Made by a program: the position numbers and the translations under genes. A stretch of 49,493 nt of DNA, from the IMG/VR virus record IMGVR_UViG_3300035102_000435; one strand, written 5' to 3'. The notes below the pieces were generated by a model. The model ran no database searches and had not been told where the DNA came from. It was given only the letters and a program-made list of their open reading frames with translations. Source of the stretch: a virus. This document shows, in pieces, positions 5,185 through 44,877 of the stretch (position 1 is its first letter; each line of letters starts with the position of its first letter).

Positions 5185-5391
5185 ATGCTTTTAACTGTTA
5201 TAGTAACATATTTGGTGTTGGGTGTGCTGATAACTATGACTCTGGGAGACGTTTTTAGTTCAGTTTATGTAGATTGGCAAACACTTTGGTTTGATGTATT
5301 ATTATTTATTTTTTCTGTAATTACTTCTCCTTTATTGAGTTTGATATTTATTATTCAGGGAGTAGTTGAAAAATTAAAAGGGAGGTTATGA
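5185..5391 (+). CDS. Hypothetical small membrane protein
   Basis: 68-aa ORF with two hydrophobic helices. Confidence 0.4.
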   Translation: MLLTVIVTYLVLGVLITMTLGDVFSSVYVDWQTLWFDVLLFIFSVITSPLLSLIFIIQGVVEKLKGRL

Positions 5392-5687
5392 TCATGGGAG
5401 ATGTACAAAATTATGCAATAGATGAAAGAAGAATAGTTGGTCTTAATGAAAAAGAAATGCACGAAATGGAAATATCAAGAGCGGAGTCGGATGTATATGA
5501 ACATATGCAAAAGCAAATTAATGAAGTAAAAGAAAAGTTAAACAAAGAACAAACTCTAAATAAAAAATTAATCAATATTAGTGAAGAAATAATAGAAGAA
5601 TTCATCAAAAATCAAGGTGTTATAACTGCTGATAAGATCATCAGCTTGAGAGATATTATTGCAGATGAAAAGGGGGGCAAGTTATGA
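5388..5687 (+). CDS. Hypothetical protein
   Basis: 99-aa ORF. Confidence 0.4.
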   Translation: MIMGDVQNYAIDERRIVGLNEKEMHEMEISRAESDVYEHMQKQINEVKEKLNKEQTLNKKLINISEEIIEEFIKNQGVITADKIISLRDIIADEKGGKL

Positions 5688-24986: not shown

Positions 24987-26459
24987 ATGGCTTATCAACA
25001 TGGTGTATATATTACAGAACAAGCAACATCGCTAACACCTCCCGTGCAAGTTGACAGTGCTATACAGGTTATTGTAGGTACAGCACCAGTAAACTTAGTT
25101 GAAGACCCACAAGGAGCTGTTAATAAACCACTTATTGCTTATAGTTACGCCGAAGCAGTAAGTAAAGTTGGCTATTCTGATGACTTTGAAAATTACACTA
25201 TATGCCAGTCTATTGATGCATCTTTTAGAGTCTTTAATGTTGCACCAATTGTACTGATTAATGTTCTAGATCCAGCAGAACATAATATAGCTGTAACAGA
25301 TGAAGCGCATCCGATTGTTAATAATGAAATTGAAATTGAAGAAGAAGGAATAATGTTAGATGAAACCTTTTCGGTAAGCAGCGAAGACGGGGTAACCGAT
25401 TATGTAAAAGATAACGATTATAAATTATCTTTTAATGATGATGGATTTGTTGTATTAGAAGTTGTAGAAGGTGGCCAGATAGAAACCGACGGAGAAACAT
25501 CTCTAACTTTAGGATTTACAAAACTAGATCCATCTGCTGTAACTAAAGATGATGTTATCGGCGGTTACGATATTGCGACAGGTAAATATAAAGGATTAGA
25601 GAACGTCGAACAAGTATTTCCTCAATTATCAGTTATACCTGGTACTATTCTGGCCCCTGGATGGAGCCATATGCCATCGGTAGGTATTGCAATGACTTCA
25701 AAAACAAAAGGAATCAATGGTTCATTTAGCTGTCAATCAGTTCTTGATATTGACACAAATGATGTTGATGGAGCTGCTGCTTATAGTGATGCAGCTGGCT
25801 GGAAAAACGATAACAGCTATACTGATAAAAATAACATTGTTGCCTGGCCAAAAGCTATGGTTGGAGATAAGACATATTATTTTAGTGCTCTTATCGCACC
25901 ACTAATGGCTTTCATTGATAACCAAAATGAAGGTGTTCCTTTTGTATCTCCATCAAATAAACAGGCCAAAATTACAGCTACTGTTTTAGAAAATGGAGAA
26001 GAGGTATATTTGGACCAGGTGCAGGCTAATTTATTGAATAGCAATGGTATTATAACTGCTATTAATATGGATGGTTGGAAAGCTTGGGGTAACAGAACTG
26101 GCGCTTATCCATCAACTACTGATCCAAAAGACGCATTTATATCAGTCAGAAGAATGTTCGATTGGTGGGGCAATACATTTATCCGCACATATTTCCAGAA
26201 AGTTGATGATCCGACTAACTTAAGGCTAGTTGAAAATATTGTGGATAGTGAAAATATCAGAGCAAATGGTTATAAAGCAAAACAACAAATTGCTGGAGCT
26301 AAAATTGAATTTAACCAGGATGAAAATCCATTGACTGATATTATCGATGGAAAAATTGTATTCCATCAGTATTTAACACCATATCCACCAGCTAGATCAA
26401 TTACAAATATTTTAGAATTTGACCCTTATGCTCTGCAAGCAGCTCTTGGAGGTGAATAA
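24987..26459 (+). CDS. Contractile tail sheath protein
   Basis: 490 aa; N-terminus MAYQHGVYITEQATSL...PVQV is typical of phage tail sheath proteins; followed by tube, chaperone and tape-measure genes. Confidence 0.75.
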   Translation: MAYQHGVYITEQATSLTPPVQVDSAIQVIVGTAPVNLVEDPQGAVNKPLIAYSYAEAVSKVGYSDDFENYTICQSIDASFRVFNVAPIVLINVLDPAEHNIAVTDEAHPIVNNEIEIEEEGIMLDETFSVSSEDGVTDYVKDNDYKLSFNDDGFVVLEVVEGGQIETDGETSLTLGFTKLDPSAVTKDDVIGGYDIATGKYKGLENVEQVFPQLSVIPGTILAPGWSHMPSVGIAMTSKTKGINGSFSCQSVLDIDTNDVDGAAAYSDAAGWKNDNSYTDKNNIVAWPKAMVGDKTYYFSALIAPLMAFIDNQNEGVPFVSPSNKQAKITATVLENGEEVYLDQVQANLLNSNGIITAINMDGWKAWGNRTGAYPSTTDPKDAFISVRRMFDWWGNTFIRTYFQKVDDPTNLRLVENIVDSENIRANGYKAKQQIAGAKIEFNQDENPLTDIIDGKIVFHQYLTPYPPARSITNILEFDPYALQAALGGE

Positions 26460-26461
26460 TT

Positions 26462-26983
26462 ATGTCAGTAAATCCTATTCCAGAAAAAGTAGTCAACTTC
26501 AATCTTTATGATGAAGGGGAAAAAATGATTGGTATCACAGGTGAAGTGACATTACCAAATTTCGAAGCAATGTCAGAAACAATTTCCGGAGCTGGCATAG
26601 CAGGGGAATATGAAAGTCCAACGCCTGGACATTTTAGCAGCATGGAAATAGAAATTCCATATAGAACAGTGAATGGTCGCTCAACAAAGATGATGACTCC
26701 CACTGCCAAAACTATTATTTTGCGGGGGTCTCAGCAAATTAATGATTCTTCTGCTGGAACAATTGAATATCAGCCGGTAAAAATAACCATGAAAGTAGTC
26801 CCTAAAAATCTTAATTTAGGAACTATGGGAGTTGGCCAGCCATCTGAAACAGCAAATACTCTTGAAATACTCTATATCAAAATAGTTATTGATGGAGAAG
26901 AAGTTTTAGAGTATGACAAATTGAACTTTATTTATGTTGTTGATGGCCAAGATATTCTAAAAGAAGTAAGAGAACAGATATAA
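26462..26983 (+). CDS. Tail tube protein
   Basis: 173 aa, directly after the sheath gene (sheath-tube pairing as in PBSX XkdK/XkdM). Confidence 0.65.
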   Translation: MSVNPIPEKVVNFNLYDEGEKMIGITGEVTLPNFEAMSETISGAGIAGEYESPTPGHFSSMEIEIPYRTVNGRSTKMMTPTAKTIILRGSQQINDSSAGTIEYQPVKITMKVVPKNLNLGTMGVGQPSETANTLEILYIKIVIDGEEVLEYDKLNFIYVVDGQDILKEVREQI

Positions 26984-27004: not shown

Positions 27005-27319
27005 ATGTCTAAAGAAGTGAAAAAAGATAATCCGTTGATCATTGAATTAAGTAAGCCAATTAAGTTTGAAGATAAGACTATAGAAAAAATTGATTTAACT
27101 GGTTTGGAATCTTTAAAAACCAGCGATTTAATTGAATTAGAAAAGCAGTTTAATTTAGATGGCAACTTTTCTTCTCAGCCAGAGGCCAGTGTAGCTTATG
27201 CAAGATTGGTATCTAATCGAGTTACAGATTTACCATTAGAATTCTTTGATCAATTAGGCGCTAAAAATATTATCAAAGTAAAGACTGCGGTAATGAATTT
27301 TTTCTATGGAGAGGAATAA
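27005..27319 (+). CDS. Tail assembly chaperone
   Basis: 104-aa ORF between tube and tape measure; an overlapping -1 frame stays open to 27468 (see the slippery site). Confidence 0.55.
   Translation: MSKEVKKDNPLIIELSKPIKFEDKTIEKIDLTGLESLKTSDLIELEKQFNLDGNFSSQPEASVAYARLVSNRVTDLPLEFFDQLGAKNIIKVKTAVMNFFYGEE
27298..27304 (+). other. Predicted -1 programmed ribosomal frameshift slippery heptamer T_TTT_TTC
   Basis: Heptamer at the end of the chaperone ORF; the -1 frame reads ...FFLWRGIKATDGKK...DFYYNLEIDELFNIADDIKAVTKNGK to a stop at 27466..27468, overlapping the tape-measure start. Confidence 0.45.
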
Positions 27320-27457
27320 AAGCTACTGATGGAAAAAAGCTAAGAAAAATTTCTGTCAGTTTAGGTTTGAAAACATCAACCAGCGTTGATTTTTATTACA
27401 ATCTAGAAATAGATGAACTTTTCAATATAGCTGATGATATAAAGGCGGTGACTAAAA

Positions 27458-29668
27458 ATGGCAAGTAGAACCACTTATCAAACTCATTTTCTTTTGGGAG
27501 CAAAAGTTCAATCTAGTATGCATAAATCTTTTTCTAAAGTCCAAAAAAATATGAAAAACATCAGAAAAAGTGCAGGCTATACCGAAAGCGCTTATTCTAA
27601 ATTAGGTAGAACCATGAAAAGAGCCTTAGGCGCTGCCGGAATATACTTTAGTGCCAGAACAATAGTCACCGCTTTAAAAAGTTCTACTCAAGCAGCAATG
27701 GAATTTGAAGATCAAATGGCTGATGTTGGTACTCTCCTAGACGGTAATGTAAAAGAAAAGTTAGGTAATTATAGTGAACAGGTTAAACAAACTGCAATTG
27801 CAACTGGTATTTCTACTGAACAACTTAACAGAGGATTATATGAAACTATATCAGCATTAGGAGAAAGTGCTGATACTTATGATATTTTTCAAAAGGCTGC
27901 AGAAAATGCTCGCGGTGGTAATGCTGATGTTCAAAACGTAGTTAAATTTCTTTCAGCCACAATGAAAGGTTATGGAGATGTAAGTGCAGAAACTGCTCAA
28001 AAAGTATCTGATTTAGGCTTTCAGACAGTTAAATTAGGACAAACAAGTTTCCCTGAATTAGCACAGAATATGGGTGATGTAGTACCTCTTGCTGGTGCAA
28101 TGGGAGCCAATATGGAGTCTGTTTTCGGGGCGATGGCCACTCTGACTGGTGTTACTGGTGATACTGCAAAAGTAAGTACTCAGTTAAGAGGTGTTTTTAC
28201 TGCTCTGACTAAACCAACTTCTGCTATGAAAGAAGTAATAAACGGTTTAGGGTACGAATCTGGTGCAGCTATGATCAAAGCGAAAGGATTCCAGGGAACG
28301 CTAAACCTTTTGAAGAAAGCAACCGGAGGATCTACAGAACAACTAAGTAAAATGTTTGGCCGAGTTGAAGCGTTAAATGCAGTTATTGCTTTAACTGGAG
28401 CCCAGTCTGAAAATTTCACAACTAAAACAGAAGCTATGTATCAAGCGGTTGGAGCAAGCAACGAAGCTTTTAAAGAAAAAGTTAAAACCTCTAAAGCGCT
28501 AAGAGAACGTTTTGGTCAATTAATTAATGTTTTAAAAATTAATTTTGGTAACAAAGTTTTACCTTATATTAATCAAGGTTTAGAGTTTATTCTTGTAAAT
28601 TACAAGGAAATGGGAGCTCAAGCCAAAGCAGCTATGGAGCCTGTTCGAGCAACATATAATTTTATAAAAAATAATTGGACTGCAATAGAACCAATTGTTG
28701 TTGGAATAACTTCTGCAATGGTAGCATATAAAACAACTCAAATTGCTTTGACTGCTGCTCAAAAAGCAGGAATGATTGTTCAAGCAATTTCTAAAGCTTA
28801 TAGTACTTTTCAGGCCACAATGAATGCAGCAAGATATTCTACATTAGCAGCAAGCAAAGCTCAGGTTGCGCTTAATCTTGCAATGTCAGCTAATCCAGCT
28901 GCAGTTGTAGCAATAGCAATAGGAGCTCTGGCTACTGCTGGATATCTAGTCTATAAAAATTGGGACAAAATACTACCTAAATTAAGAGCTTTCTATAATC
29001 TGATTAAAAACTTACCAGTAGTTGAAGCTTTTATAGGTGGAATTACTGATATATATGAATCTGGAAAAGAGACTTTTAATGGTTTAGTCAACTTTGTAAG
29101 TGGTGTTTTCACTGGCAACTGGTCAAAAGCTTGGGATGGAGTAGTTCAGGCGGTTGGTGGTTCATTTTCTTTAATAGGAGATTTAGTTAAGCTGCCAATC
29201 AATAATACTATAGGTCTGATTAATACAGCTCTCGCAGGTATTGGAAAGATTGATGTCTCAATTCCCGACTGGGTACCAGGCGTTGGTGGTAAAAGTTTTG
29301 GCCCGGATATTCCAGAGATTCCGTTATTAGCAAAAGGAACAAATAATTTTGGCGGGGGTATGGCTATAGTTGGAGAACAAGGTCCTGAATTAGTTAACAT
29401 GCCACAGGGAACTCAGGTAACAACTGCAACGAAAACTGAAACTCTTATTCAAAAACTAAAAGAAACTCCTTCTAAAGCCACTCAAGTATTAAACAACTTA
29501 AAATCTGATAATTCGACTAAAAATACTAAAATTGAAATTAATATTGAAAATATAATTAAAGGAAATGCTGATAAAAAAGATTTAGAACGCTCAAATAGAG
29601 AATTGAGAGATATGATTGAAGAAGTATTTCTTGATTTAGGCGGAAATCCACGAACCGATTTCAGTTAA
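27458..29668 (+). CDS. Tail tape measure protein
   Basis: 736 aa, Ala/Gly-rich, helical and hydrophobic segments; position after the chaperone. Confidence 0.8.
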   Translation: MASRTTYQTHFLLGAKVQSSMHKSFSKVQKNMKNIRKSAGYTESAYSKLGRTMKRALGAAGIYFSARTIVTALKSSTQAAMEFEDQMADVGTLLDGNVKEKLGNYSEQVKQTAIATGISTEQLNRGLYETISALGESADTYDIFQKAAENARGGNADVQNVVKFLSATMKGYGDVSAETAQKVSDLGFQTVKLGQTSFPELAQNMGDVVPLAGAMGANMESVFGAMATLTGVTGDTAKVSTQLRGVFTALTKPTSAMKEVINGLGYESGAAMIKAKGFQGTLNLLKKATGGSTEQLSKMFGRVEALNAVIALTGAQSENFTTKTEAMYQAVGASNEAFKEKVKTSKALRERFGQLINVLKINFGNKVLPYINQGLEFILVNYKEMGAQAKAAMEPVRATYNFIKNNWTAIEPIVVGITSAMVAYKTTQIALTAAQKAGMIVQAISKAYSTFQATMNAARYSTLAASKAQVALNLAMSANPAAVVAIAIGALATAGYLVYKNWDKILPKLRAFYNLIKNLPVVEAFIGGITDIYESGKETFNGLVNFVSGVFTGNWSKAWDGVVQAVGGSFSLIGDLVKLPINNTIGLINTALAGIGKIDVSIPDWVPGVGGKSFGPDIPEIPLLAKGTNNFGGGMAIVGEQGPELVNMPQGTQVTTATKTETLIQKLKETPSKATQVLNNLKSDNSTKNTKIEINIENIIKGNADKKDLERSNRELRDMIEEVFLDLGGNPRTDFS

Positions 29669-42647: not shown

Positions 42648-44189
42648 CTATGGTCTGTAATCTTCAATATTAATTGTGGATTCAAAACGGTACGCCCCAC
42701 CTCCACCATCAACATCCACAATATAATCTATGGTTATATTGTTTTCATATACGGTGACTTTTTTAACGAAAGTTTTGACGATCCTTCGCTGATCTTCAAG
42801 GCTTTCGTTTTTAATATTTCTATACTTCATTAATTCTTGAACAATTCTTTCTTTTGATGGAGAATTATTCTCGGCTTGAAACCTTGCTTCCTCAAGGTAC
42901 ATTTCATAATCTGCTTTTTCATTTTCAAGAGAGTTTAATTTTTCATTCATTGAAGGCTGATATAAACCTTCTGCTACTGCTTCAGTAATGTTATCAATTT
43001 TTTTCTGAACTTCTTTTAAATGTTTTTCAAATCTTTTAATGTCAGAATTTATTTCTTTATTTTCAGTTTTAGCAAATTTGTATACCTTGGCAGCTATATT
43101 TTTGATTGCAGCAGGCGAAAATAATTCTTCTATCATATTATCTAAAACTGCACCTTCTACAAAATCTTTACTTATTGAAGGCATGTCACAATCTCTTTTT
43201 CTCTTTCTGGTAGAACATTCATAAGAAGTGTAGACAGTTTTATTTTTTCCAGCAATTCTTCTATTTCCAACCATTGCTCCCTCGCATTTTCCACACTTAA
43301 TTAAACCGGCAAGAATATAGATTTCTTTAGCTTTATTATTAACAGACTTTTTATTACCTTCCATTCTTTTTTTCACCTTCCTCCAGGTATGATCATCAAT
43401 TATTCTTGGCATTCCACCTTCAATTCTAATAATTTTCTTTTTATCTTTTGACTTATGGTGATTTCTCTTTCCAGCCTTTTTACTTACAGATCTGTTAAAA
43501 ATATAAACGCCCCGATACTTTTCATTAATCAAAATATCATGTAAACTAGGCCTGCTAAAATTACCACCAGTCTGAGTCTTGAAACCCCTCTTTTTAAGCT
43601 CGTCAATTATTTCTGAATAACCATGGCCATCGGCATACATTTCAAAAATTAACTTCACACTTTTAGCCTGCTCTTCATTGATAATGTAAGTCTTATCTTC
43701 TGCAACATCGAACCCAAGGGGTGCTAAACCTCCATTATGTTTGCAATTTAAAGCGTTCTCTTTCATTCCTTTTTTAACTTCTCTGCGTAAATTAGCAGAA
43801 TAATATTCATTATACCCTTCCAATACAGATTCTAATATTATAGATTCAGGACTACCATCCAAATTTTCTAATGCAGAAATAACTTCGACACCATTCTCTC
43901 TTAATTTTCTTTTATATACAGCGGAATCATATCTATTTCTAGCAAAACGATCTAGTTTATGAACAATCACAAAATCAAACAAATCTTTTTTACTGTCGCT
44001 GACCATGTCTAAAAAAGCTGGGCGATCAGAAGTTGTAGCTGATTTCGCTTTATCAGTATAAATTTTATTTATTTTTATATTATTTTTGGCTGCGTACTCC
44101 TTAATTTCTCTAACCTGAGCATCTATTGATTCTTCTCTTTGGTTACTGGAGCTAAAACGTGCATAAATTGCAGCTGTTGGCTTACTCAT
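42648..44189 (-). CDS. Large serine recombinase (integrase)
   Basis: 513 aa; N-terminal resolvase-type catalytic region (AAIYARFSSSNQ with the catalytic Ser), recombinase domain, Cys-rich zinc ribbon and coiled-coil C-terminus; RBS AGGAGG. Confidence 0.9.
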   Translation of the reverse strand: MSKPTAAIYARFSSSNQREESIDAQVREIKEYAAKNNIKINKIYTDKAKSATTSDRPAFLDMVSDSKKDLFDFVIVHKLDRFARNRYDSAVYKRKLRENGVEVISALENLDGSPESIILESVLEGYNEYYSANLRREVKKGMKENALNCKHNGGLAPLGFDVAEDKTYIINEEQAKSVKLIFEMYADGHGYSEIIDELKKRGFKTQTGGNFSRPSLHDILINEKYRGVYIFNRSVSKKAGKRNHHKSKDKKKIIRIEGGMPRIIDDHTWRKVKKRMEGNKKSVNNKAKEIYILAGLIKCGKCEGAMVGNRRIAGKNKTVYTSYECSTRKRKRDCDMPSISKDFVEGAVLDNMIEELFSPAAIKNIAAKVYKFAKTENKEINSDIKRFEKHLKEVQKKIDNITEAVAEGLYQPSMNEKLNSLENEKADYEMYLEEARFQAENNSPSKERIVQELMKYRNIKNESLEDQRRIVKTFVKKVTVYENNITIDYIVDVDGGGGAYRFESTINIEDYRP

Positions 44190-44205
44190 GTTTATCCTCC
44201 TAAGT

Positions 44206-44877
44206 TTATAACTTATGCATAACTTCTATAGCTTTACCAATAATTCTAGCCTGATCATTTTTTATAATGATATTTTCATAATTAGGATTCTCAGGTTGCA
44301 AAACCCATGAACCGTTAGTTTTTATTACTCTTTTTAAAGTTGCTTCATCAGAATTAACCATTACTACTGCTATCTCATTATTTTCAACTGTACTCTGACG
44401 TCTGATCAAAACAAGATCCCCCTCGTTAATACCTGCATTTATCATACTGTCACCTTTGACTTTAAGAAAGAAATATTGACCATTTGAAACCCTATCAGCT
44501 GGTACTTTTTTGTAGAATAAAATATTTTGTTCAGCCAAAACTGGCTGCCCTGCAGAAATTGTTCCGATAACCGGAATAGATTCGACTTCTTTTTTTATGA
44601 TGTCATCATAATTATATTTAGATTTTGTTTCTTTTAACTCATTAACTTTTCCAGATATGTAACCCGCTTTAATCATCAGAATGCCATCCGCAATATTTAA
44701 AGCTTGCTCTAATTTTTTGATAATTTGTGGAGATGGAGGGTTTTTAGTTTTGCCATTTAATATTCTAGAAATGTAAGAGTGATCTATATCAGCCTGTCTT
44801 CCCAACTCTCTGATAGAACTTATTGCCGAATCATCAATTTCTTTTTGAAGAGTTTCTCTAAAATCTTTTATACTCAT
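44206..44877 (-). CDS. CI-like repressor (HTH plus S24 LexA-type peptidase domain)
   Basis: 223 aa; N-terminal HTH and C-terminal S24 motifs (GDSM...KRV); divergent from a Cro-like gene. Confidence 0.85.
   Translation of the reverse strand: MSIKDFRETLQKEIDDSAISSIRELGRQADIDHSYISRILNGKTKNPPSPQIIKKLEQALNIADGILMIKAGYISGKVNELKETKSKYNYDDIIKKEVESIPVIGTISAGQPVLAEQNILFYKKVPADRVSNGQYFFLKVKGDSMINAGINEGDLVLIRRQSTVENNEIAVVMVNSDEATLKRVIKTNGSWVLQPENPNYENIIIKNDQARIIGKAIEVMHKL

What the first reader, a model, noticed from the sequence alone, without database searches (positions are those of the whole stretch)
27296..27468. Predicted -1 programmed frameshift in the tail assembly chaperone
The slippery heptamer T_TTT_TTC (27298..27304) sits 13 nt before the chaperone stop, and the -1 frame stays open for about 54 codons to a stop at 27466..27468, overlapping the tape-measure start. 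This matches the conserved G/GT-type chaperone frameshift of tailed phages.
Basis: partly seen in the sequence, partly recalled or inferred. Interest (0 to 1): 0.5.

Follow-up and report, generated by a model that had tools for sequence, protein, structure and literature searches.

The report
Tail chaperone -1 frameshift, confirmed
This phage makes two versions of a tail-building helper protein from one gene by letting some ribosomes slip back one base on a run of six T's; comparative evidence supports it strongly, but it is an ordinary, long-known feature of tailed phages.

Summary
T_TTT_TTC (27298-27304) is in phase with the 104-aa ORF 27005-27319, 12 nt before its TAA. The -1 frame then runs 54 codons to TAG 27466-27468, 11 nt inside the tape-measure gene (ATG 27458). 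The ORF is a tail assembly chaperone (phrog_3140, E 1e-23), lying between the tube and tape-measure genes of a contractile-tail phage, probably of Halanaerobium.

The heptamer alone means little: 12 in-phase T6N sites occur in the window. The comparative evidence is decisive:
- Against a relative with a 77%-identical chaperone, substitutions move from third positions of frame 0 to third positions of the -1 frame (14 of 20), then back in the tape measure.
- The extension is as conserved as the chaperone domain, with invariant G, LRK and TS residues.
- In 75 of 75 informative bacterial genomes an extension-like peptide lies in the -1 frame. 70 of 75 have in-phase T_TTT_TTN, mostly 6 or 12 nt before the stop.
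- P2 E/E+E' and Vibrio phage X29 G/GT have the same slip site and are annotated as frameshifted.

No conserved stimulatory RNA structure was found. The extension domain matches no Pfam or NCBIfam family, and gene callers miss it.

Verdict: real, and a new member of a known kind. The fusion product and its ratio have not been measured.

The parts
26462..26983 (+). Tail tube gene (173 aa), immediately upstream. Presumed binding partner of the extension domain.
   Evidence: Pfam Phage_tube (FII), E 3.8e-42. The binding role is inferred from lambda gpT-gpV (PMC5009743).
27005..27319 (+). Tail assembly chaperone ORF, the frame-0 product of 104 aa (gpG / P2 gpE analogue).
   Evidence: phrog_3140 'tail assembly chaperone', E 1.1e-23. 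Pfam Phage_TAC_7, 23.3 bits against a cutoff of 25. 475 HMMER relatives, most ending at the same point.
27298..27304 (+). Slippery heptamer T_TTT_TTC in phase with frame 0. P-site codon TTT 27299-27301, A-site codon TTC 27302-27304.
   Evidence: Direct reading. Conserved as T_TTT_TTN in 70 of 75 genomes, in all 8 viral lineages, and in P2, X29 and FP_Epona.
27317..27319 (+). Frame-0 stop codon TAA, 12 nt after the heptamer.
   Evidence: The spacing is 6 or 12 nt in 67 of the 70 T6N loci.
27304..27468 (+). -1 frame extension (T-like domain), 54 codons plus TAG 27466-27468. No usable start codon of its own.
   Evidence: Third-position bias of substitutions in the -1 frame, 14 of 20. Protein conservation with invariant G, LRK, TS, L, L. 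The only internal starts are TTG 27367 and GTG 27448.
27005..27468 (+). Predicted 154-aa G-T fusion, join(27005..27304, 27304..27468).
   Evidence: With the fusion as query the phrog_3140 match extends to profile position 268 of 274. The homologous joined CDS is annotated in Vibrio phage X29.
27458..29668 (+). Tape measure gene (736 aa). Its ATG lies 11 nt inside the end of the extension.
   Evidence: Pfam PhageMin_Tail, 6.2e-25. phrog_991, 3.9e-88.
27320..27368 (+). Weak hairpin downstream of the slip site (inner stem 27325-27335 / 27350-27360). Probably not a stimulator.
   Evidence: Fold z = -1.44. The stem starts 15-20 nt after the heptamer. No compensatory changes.

Best explanation
The locus encodes two tail assembly chaperones from one start codon by -1 programmed ribosomal frameshifting. 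Most ribosomes translate 27005-27316 and stop at TAA 27317, giving the 104-aa chaperone. A minority slip back one base while tRNA-Phe molecules occupy UUU (P site) and UUC (A site) of U_UUU_UUC. Both can re-pair with UUU UUU in the -1 frame. Those ribosomes read 54 more codons to TAG 27466 and produce a 154-aa fusion ending ...VMNFF-LWRGIKATDGKKLRK....

By analogy with lambda G/GT and P2 E/E+E', the shared N-terminal domain coats the tape measure protein (27458-29668). The extension recruits the tube protein (26462-26983), so that tube polymerisation starts on the tape measure. Neither product is expected in the finished virion. The ratio of the two products is set by the intrinsic slipperiness of the heptamer, because no conserved stimulatory RNA element was found.

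Shown here: the sequence anatomy, that the -1 frame is protein-coding under selection, and that the arrangement is conserved. Inferred: the slip itself, its efficiency, and the binding partners.
For: Anatomy read directly from the sequence.

Chaperone identity and tube-chaperone-tape measure order.

Substitution phase, window against L010:
- chaperone region: 25 of 37 at position 3 of frame 0;
- extension: 14 of 20 at position 3 of the -1 frame (binomial P = 9e-4);
- tape measure: 22 of 34 at position 3 of frame 0.

Eight viral lineages (tube identity 46-100%) all keep in-phase T6[C/A/G] 6-12 nt before the stop and a homologous -1 peptide. The only indel is 9 codons long.

Genome survey: in 75 of 75 genomes the extension HMM hits the -1 frame, and 70 of 75 have in-phase T6N. 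The last base varies (G 31, C 20, A 14, T 5) while the six T's do not, in genomes of 31-61% GC.

The four loci without T6 carry other canonical in-phase heptamers (G_GGT_TTC, G_GGT_TTT twice, A_AAT_TTT), which argues for tandem tRNA slippage.

Annotated precedents: P2 E/E+E' with T_TTT_TTG at the equivalent ...VVGFL... position, and X29 'lambda gpGT analog'.

Functional model taken from PMC5009743.
Against: - There is no protein-level evidence for the fusion in this phage.
- No stimulatory structure lies at the usual 5-9 nt spacing in the window (z = -1.44). According to the review, U_UUU_UUA and U_UUU_UUU are much less shift-prone than A_AAA_AAG in E. coli, so efficiency may be low.
- Eleven other in-phase T6N sites exist in the window, so the heptamer cannot be highly slippery by itself without cost.
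- The extension shows no detectable sequence similarity to P2 E', so its tube-binding role rests on analogy.
Confidence: 0.9

Rival explanations
1. Transcriptional slippage. RNA polymerase stutters on the T6 run and inserts one extra U in a fraction of mRNAs. Ribosomes translating those mRNAs normally would make the same G-T fusion.
For: The site is a homopolymer run, and 5 of 75 loci have seven or more T's. The protein product would be identical, so the comparative data on the extension cannot separate the two mechanisms.
Against: - The run is only 6 nt here. Well-studied bacterial slippage sites are longer (own knowledge; general treatment in PMC5009743).
- Four lineages have replaced T6 with in-phase X_XXY_YYZ heptamers whose T runs are only 3-5 nt. 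These still permit tandem tRNA slippage but not polymerase stuttering.
- The run is always in the N_NNT|TTT|TTN phase.
- The P2 record describes the equivalent site as a translational frameshift.
Confidence: 0.05
2. The extension is an independent small gene translated from its own start codon, not a fusion.
For: Gene callers sometimes call fragments of this frame as stand-alone ORFs: P0165 (33 aa), P0162 (42 aa), P0158 (60 aa), and L026 4337-4519.
Against: - In the window the only start-type codons in the frame are TTG 27367 (33 codons left, with AGG directly abutting it) and GTG 27448 (6 codons left).
- Both would leave out the invariant G and LRK residues.
- Conservation of the peptide begins immediately after the heptamer in every lineage.
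- The -1 frame opens only 11 codons upstream of the heptamer.
Confidence: 0.02
3. Coincidence. An AT-rich genome happens to have a T run near a stop codon and an open alternative frame, and only the 104-aa protein is made.
For: In-phase T6N heptamers are common here: 12 in the window. No stimulatory element was found.
Against: - A 56-codon open -1 frame lies far beyond the 95th percentile of 28 codons.
- The -1 frame carries a coding substitution pattern.
- The -1 frame holds a conserved protein domain in 75 of 75 genomes, up to 61% GC.
Confidence: 0.01

Closest known systems
Bacteriophage P2 gpE / gpE+E' (contractile-tail phage; annotated -1 translational frameshift, AF063097)
   Same: Same gene order: tube FII, chaperone, tape measure. 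The slip site T_TTT_TTG sits at the equivalent ...V-V-G-F-L... position about 20 nt before the E stop. The extension is 57 aa and ends 8 nt inside the tape-measure gene, against 54 aa and 11 nt here. Pfam Phage_TAC_7, which names P2 E, is the only Pfam family the chaperone approaches.
   Different: Neither the chaperone nor the extension is detectably similar to the single P2 sequence (hhalign E about 0.1). The window protein scores below the Pfam cutoff. The last base of the heptamer is C rather than G.
Vibrio phage X29 tail assembly chaperones (NC_024369; 'lambda gpG analog' and joined 'lambda gpGT analog')
   Same: A true sequence homologue of the chaperone (36% identity, E 1e-9). In-phase T_TTT_TTG 6 nt before the stop, then a -1 extension up to the tape measure. 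The top structural match in BFVD is a 147-aa protein, the same length as the X29 GT product.
   Different: X29 has a strong hairpin starting about 6 nt after the heptamer (z = -5.95). The window has none. The X29 extension is only loosely similar to this one.
Bacteriophage lambda gpG / gpGT
   Same: Same logic: a chaperone ORF between the major tail gene and the tape measure, a low-level -1 slip near its 3' end, and a fixed ratio of the two products. G binds the tape measure and T recruits the tail tube subunit (PMC5009743).
   Different: Lambda is a siphovirus and its chaperone belongs to a different sequence family. It also uses a different slip site (G_GGA_AAG, from my own knowledge). The ratio of about 30:1 is measured for lambda and unknown here.
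Faecalibacterium phage FP_Epona gp48 (NC_047910)
   Same: Homologous chaperone ending ...SFFYSED*, with the identical T_TTT_TTC 12 nt before the stop and a homologous -1 peptide.
   Different: The RefSeq record annotates only the short product. The genome has a much higher GC content.

Membership tests
G/GT-type tail assembly chaperone frameshift (Xu, Hendrix & Duda 2004 class) | Two overlapping reading frames located between the major tail (tube) gene and the tape-measure gene | tested here: met
   Tube 26462-26983, chaperone 27005-27319, -1 ORF to 27468, tape measure from 27458.
G/GT-type tail assembly chaperone frameshift (Xu, Hendrix & Duda 2004 class) | Slippery sequence in phase with the upstream ORF, near its 3' end, within the zone where both frames are open | tested here: met
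   T_TTT_TTC 27298-27304, 12 nt before the TAA. The -1 frame is open from 27265.
G/GT-type tail assembly chaperone frameshift (Xu, Hendrix & Duda 2004 class) | The downstream frame has no translation start of its own that could give the conserved product | tested here: met
   Only TTG 27367 and GTG 27448, both downstream of the invariant residues.
G/GT-type tail assembly chaperone frameshift (Xu, Hendrix & Duda 2004 class) | The arrangement (slip site plus open shifted frame) is conserved in relatives despite sequence divergence | tested here: met
   8 of 8 viral lineages. In 75 of 75 genomes the extension is in the -1 frame, and 74 of 75 have an in-phase heptamer, 70 of them T6N.
G/GT-type tail assembly chaperone frameshift (Xu, Hendrix & Duda 2004 class) | Both the short and the fused protein are made, in a fixed ratio, and both are needed for tail assembly | not testable with these tools
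   Needs mass spectrometry, a reporter assay and genetics.
Pfam PF10109 Phage_TAC_7 (P2 E, Mu gp41) | Whole-protein score at or above the curated gathering cutoff of 25 bits | tested here: not met
   23.3 bits, E 6.7e-05, covering profile positions 2-78 of 79. 7 of the 8 related lineages match at E <= 1, best 2.8e-06. The homologue in X29 is annotated as pfam10109. I treat it as a distant relative, not a certified member.
PHROG phrog_3140 (tail assembly chaperone) | Significant match to the family profile | tested here: met
   E 1.1e-23 for the 104-aa product. E 9.1e-25 for the fusion, with the match extended to profile position 268 of 274.
Any catalogued extension (T / E') domain family | The extension alone matches a Pfam, PHROG or NCBIfam model | tested here: not met
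   No Pfam hit and no PHROG hit for the window extension at E <= 1. Among the 8 extensions there is one marginal hit, to phrog_18582 (E 0.019). NCBIfam gave no relevant match when the eight full fusions, extension included, were scanned. hhalign against P2 E' gave E 0.08.

The most novel reading that the evidence does not exclude
The extension is the founding member seen here of an uncatalogued 'T-domain' family, absent from Pfam and NCBIfam and essentially absent from PHROGs. It is attached by an almost invariant U6N slip site to Phage_TAC_7-like chaperones in contractile-tail phages and prophages across Bacillota, Vibrio phages and, by layout, P2. The slip would work without any conserved RNA stimulator, with the ratio perhaps tuned by the fixed 6 or 12 nt spacing to the frame-0 stop or by lineage-specific hairpins. 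Standard annotation misses the fusion almost everywhere, including in RefSeq phages such as FP_Epona.
Probability: 0.35. Interest if true: 0.35.

Novelty: new member of a known kind. Interest (0 to 1): 0.2.

Why it matters
The practical value is for annotation. The 154-aa fusion is a real, probably essential tail-assembly gene product, and no gene caller reported it in this phage or its relatives (one search returned only the 104-aa product). The same omission occurs in a curated RefSeq phage.

The survey also yields a simple rule for this chaperone family. An in-phase T_TTT_TTN lies 6 or 12 nt before the stop, followed by a -1 ORF that ends at the tape-measure start. This rule could be used to add the missing proteins in bulk and to define an extension-domain family that current libraries lack.

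It does not change the understanding of frameshifting or of tail assembly.

Tried and rejected
The 104-aa product was used instead.
- blastn of the locus against deposited phages found only short tube-gene matches and no close relative.
- The locus finder, given chaperone alignments A4 and A5, failed because no stretch was conserved enough. I used the tube protein as anchor instead.
- Natural in-frame G-T fusions: the longer HMMER hits P0153 and P0154 have C-terminal tails with no resemblance to the extension, so I rejected them.
- Profile comparison with the single P2 E+E' and E' sequences was not significant.
- The PDB sequence search with the chaperone profile gave only chance hits. The AlphaFold model has pLDDT 76 and consists of a beta-hairpin plus five helices. 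It has no solved structural neighbour, and its only significant matches are predicted viral chaperones.
- Downstream stimulator: no significant fold in the window, no covariation among close relatives, and strong hairpins in only 3 of 11 lineages at differing positions. By eye, the VM/VVG codons upstream of the heptamer do not form a consistent Shine-Dalgarno-like element across lineages.
- The second heptamer-near-stop candidate at 5670-5687 is the ribosome binding site of the next gene.
- The multi-stretch HMMER hits P0062 and P0145 are artefacts of repetitive sequence.
- Rfam and tRNA scans of the window found nothing.
Full report
**1. The observation**

Direct reading confirms every coordinate.
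- ORF 27005-27319 encodes 104 aa ending ...AVMNFFYGEE*.
- Its last codons are AAT(27296) TTT TTC TAT GGA GAG GAA TAA(27317). The six T's at 27298-27303 plus C27304 therefore form T_TTT_TTC in the canonical X_XXY_YYZ phase, with 12 nt between the heptamer and the stop.
- Reading from 27304 in the -1 frame gives 54 sense codons up to TAG 27466-27468.
- The 736-aa downstream ORF starts at ATG 27458, so the two overlap by 11 nt.
- The -1 frame is open only from 27265, and the +1 frame for only 10 codons.
- The predicted fusion is 154 aa.

**2. Is it more than chance?**

The heptamer alone is not. The window has 34% GC and contains 147 in-phase X_XXY_YYZ sites in about 14,600 codons. Twelve of these are in-phase T6N sites in + strand genes.

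The combination is unique.
- The other eleven T6N sites are followed by -1 ORFs of 2-29 codons, and none is within 30 nt of a stop.
- The median -1 open stretch after an in-phase heptamer is 6 codons, and the 95th percentile is 28.
- The only other heptamer close to a stop with a long -1 ORF is at 5670-5687. It is the AAGGGGGG ribosome binding site of the next gene, which has its own ATG in an ATGA overlap.

**3. What the genes are**

The neighbourhood is a contractile-tail module:
- sheath, 24987-26459 (phrog_23, 4e-83);
- tube, 26462-26983 (Pfam Phage_tube FII, 3.8e-42);
- the 104-aa ORF;
- tape measure, 27458-29668 (PhageMin_Tail 6e-25; phrog_991 4e-88);
- a tail-X/LysM protein, then a protein with weak, sub-threshold similarity to gpD/YqbQ baseplate-hub families.

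The 104-aa protein matches phrog_3140 'tail assembly chaperone' at 1.1e-23. It nearly reaches Pfam Phage_TAC_7 (P2 E / Mu gp41), scoring 23.3 bits against a cutoff of 25. With the fusion as query, the phrog_3140 match extends from profile position 220 to 268 of 274.

The closest proteins in public data come from Halanaerobium metagenome bins, and only the 104-aa product was ever called. The window is mostly one-strand coding (76 of 79 crude genes) and has no tRNA or Rfam hit. This is consistent with a phage or prophage genome.

**4. Evidence that the -1 frame is translated**

(a) Substitution phase. Against a relative whose chaperone is 77% identical (L010), the substitutions fall as follows:
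- chaperone: position 3 of frame 0 (25 of 37);
- extension: position 3 of the -1 frame (14 of 20, with 1 at position 2; binomial P = 9e-4);
- tape measure: position 3 of frame 0 again (22 of 34).

(b) More distant viral contigs. I reached these through the tube protein (46-73% identity).
- All of them have T_TTT_TT[C/A/G] in phase 6-12 nt before the chaperone stop.
- All have a -1 frame open to the tape-measure start.
- In L026 and L028 that frame is even a callable ORF.

(c) Protein conservation. Aligned, the extensions are as conserved as the chaperone domain: 33-42% against 36-41% identity for the distant lineages.
- The invariant residues are G4, L13-R14-K15, T26-S27, L34 and L39.
- The only indel is exactly 9 codons.

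(d) Genome survey. I fetched 80 loci from one-per-species bacterial genomes through the tube protein. They are mostly Bacillota, with locus GC of 31-61%. I searched all three forward frames with a chaperone HMM and an extension-only HMM.
- 75 loci had both domains, and in 75 of 75 the extension lay in the -1 frame relative to the chaperone.
- 70 of 75 had an in-phase T6N in the zone where both frames are open. In 67 of those 70 it lay 6 or 12 nt before the stop.
- The last base of the heptamer varies (G 31, C 20, A 14, T 5), while the six T's do not.
- Four loci use other canonical in-phase heptamers (G_GGT_TTC, G_GGT_TTT twice, A_AAT_TTT).
- One locus (L075) has only the near-canonical GGTTTTC.

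**5. Comparison with characterised systems**

- **P2 (AF063097).** It is annotated with E, E+E' ('-1 frameshift') and a 'site of -1 translational frameshift'. The site is T_TTT_TTG in the context ...VVGFL..., about 20 nt before the E stop. E+E' ends 8 nt inside the tape-measure gene T. The layout is the same as here.
- **Vibrio phage X29.** Its chaperone is a genuine homologue (36% identity, E 1e-9). It is annotated with a 'lambda gpG analog' (noted as pfam10109) and a joined 'lambda gpGT analog', and it slips on T_TTT_TTG.
- **Faecalibacterium phage FP_Epona.** It has the identical T_TTT_TTC 12 nt before the stop and a homologous -1 peptide, but only the short product is annotated.
- **Sequence similarity.** Similarity to the single P2 sequence is not detectable by hhalign.
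- **The extension domain.** It matches no Pfam or NCBIfam model, and only one marginal PHROG hit was found.
- **Literature.** The Atkins et al. review (PMC5009743) summarises the established model. In lambda, G and GT are made at about 30:1. The G part binds the tape measure and the T domain binds the major tail subunit. Neither is in the virion. The frameshift is widely conserved in long-tailed phages, and its efficiency is 2-3-fold higher in P2-like phages.

**6. Mechanism**

The P-site codon UUU and the A-site codon UUC are both read by tRNA-Phe. After a one-base backward slip both face UUU, so re-pairing is perfect, and the product reads ...N-F-F-L-W-R-G.... This is inferred from the sequence and from the general tandem-slippage model.

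I found no stimulatory element.
- The window's downstream fold is not significant (z = -1.44 to -1.46).
- Its only real stem (27325-27335 / 27350-27360) starts 15-20 nt after the heptamer.
- Four close relatives show no compensatory change.
- Strong hairpins occur in only 3 of 11 lineages. Those in X29 (z = -5.95) and L029 (z = -3.9) start about 6 nt after the heptamer, and the one in L024 (z = -4.1) lies further away.

So any structural enhancement is lineage-specific, and the common denominator is the heptamer itself.

In relatives whose heptamer ends in A or G (a Leu codon), the residue at the junction could be heterogeneous, as described for U_UUU_UUA in the review.

**7. Rivals**

- **Transcriptional slippage on T6.** It would give the same protein and the comparative data do not exclude it. 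It is disfavoured by the short run, by the four lineages that replaced T6 with heptamers holding only 3-5 T's yet kept the canonical phase, and by the P2 annotation.
- **Independent initiation.** The only start-type codons in the frame lie downstream of the invariant residues.
- **Coincidence.** This is excluded.

**8. Structure**

An AlphaFold model of the 104-aa product has pLDDT 76 and consists of a beta-hairpin followed by five helices. It has no solved structural neighbour. Its only significant matches are predicted viral tail assembly chaperones. The fusion could not be submitted.

**9. Verdict**

This is a new member of a well-known kind: P2 E/E+E'-like, lambda G/GT-type.

The interest is modest. 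The useful by-products are a clear slip-site rule for this chaperone family and the recognition that its extension domain is missing from current family libraries and from most annotations. The fusion protein, its ratio to the short form and its binding partners remain to be shown by experiment.

Noticed in passing
window 27333-27339: A_AAA_AAG, the classic dnaX-type slippery heptamer, lies in phase with the -1 (extension) frame (GGA|AAA|AAG). A second -1 slip there would terminate after about 16 codons. It is not conserved in L021 or L024, so it is probably chance.
   Followed up: partly
L025 3079-3091, L026 4313-4325, L027 4282-4294, L028 4295-4307: Relatives carry three overlapping in-phase slippery heptamers in a row: G_GGT_TTT_TTA_AAC, or ...TTC in L025. 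This offers several possible slip points that would give nearly the same product.
   Followed up: no
window 5670-5687: In-phase A_AAG_GGG / G_GGG_GGC lies 6-9 nt before the stop of gene 5388-5687, followed by a 190-codon -1 ORF. It turned out to be the Shine-Dalgarno sequence (AAGGGGGG) of the next gene, which starts at an ATGA overlap at 5684. It is not a frameshift.
   Followed up: yes
L032 (NC_047910.1, Faecalibacterium phage FP_Epona) 1150-1643: The RefSeq record annotates only the short chaperone (gp48). T_TTT_TTC at 1461-1467 and a homologous 60-codon -1 ORF reaching the tape-measure start are both present, so the GT product is missing from the annotation.
   Followed up: partly
proteins P0009, P0010, P0024 and about 20 other hits: Roughly one in six of the top HMMER hits are proteins of about 200 aa (some up to 323 aa) with two tandem copies of the chaperone domain. 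Each copy ends in the ...INFLW / ...VFLYG slip-site motif. I did not examine whether these duplicated chaperones still frameshift.
   Followed up: no
L024 4351-4387; window 27325-27360: A hairpin spans the codons for D-G...L-R-K...S-V of the extension. It is strong in L024 (-25 kcal/mol, z = -4.1) and weak in the window. It lies 20-30 nt after the heptamer, too far for a classical stimulator. Its purpose, if any, is unknown.
   Followed up: partly
L075 3336-3363: This is the only one of 75 genomes without a canonical in-phase heptamer. The site reads ATG GTT TTC TCG (G_GTT_TTC), which would allow only A-site re-pairing. It may be a decaying prophage or may use a non-canonical slip.
   Followed up: no
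window 42648-44877, minus strand: Two long ORFs (513 aa and 223 aa) are the main exceptions to the otherwise one-strand gene arrangement. They might be an integration or regulation module. I did not examine them.
   Followed up: no
proteins P0062 (3090 aa) and P0145 (835 aa): These matched the chaperone in 22 and 5 stretches. A Pfam scan shows scattered weak hits to unrelated families with no individually significant stretch. They are artefacts of repetitive or biased sequence, not multi-chaperone proteins.
   Followed up: yes
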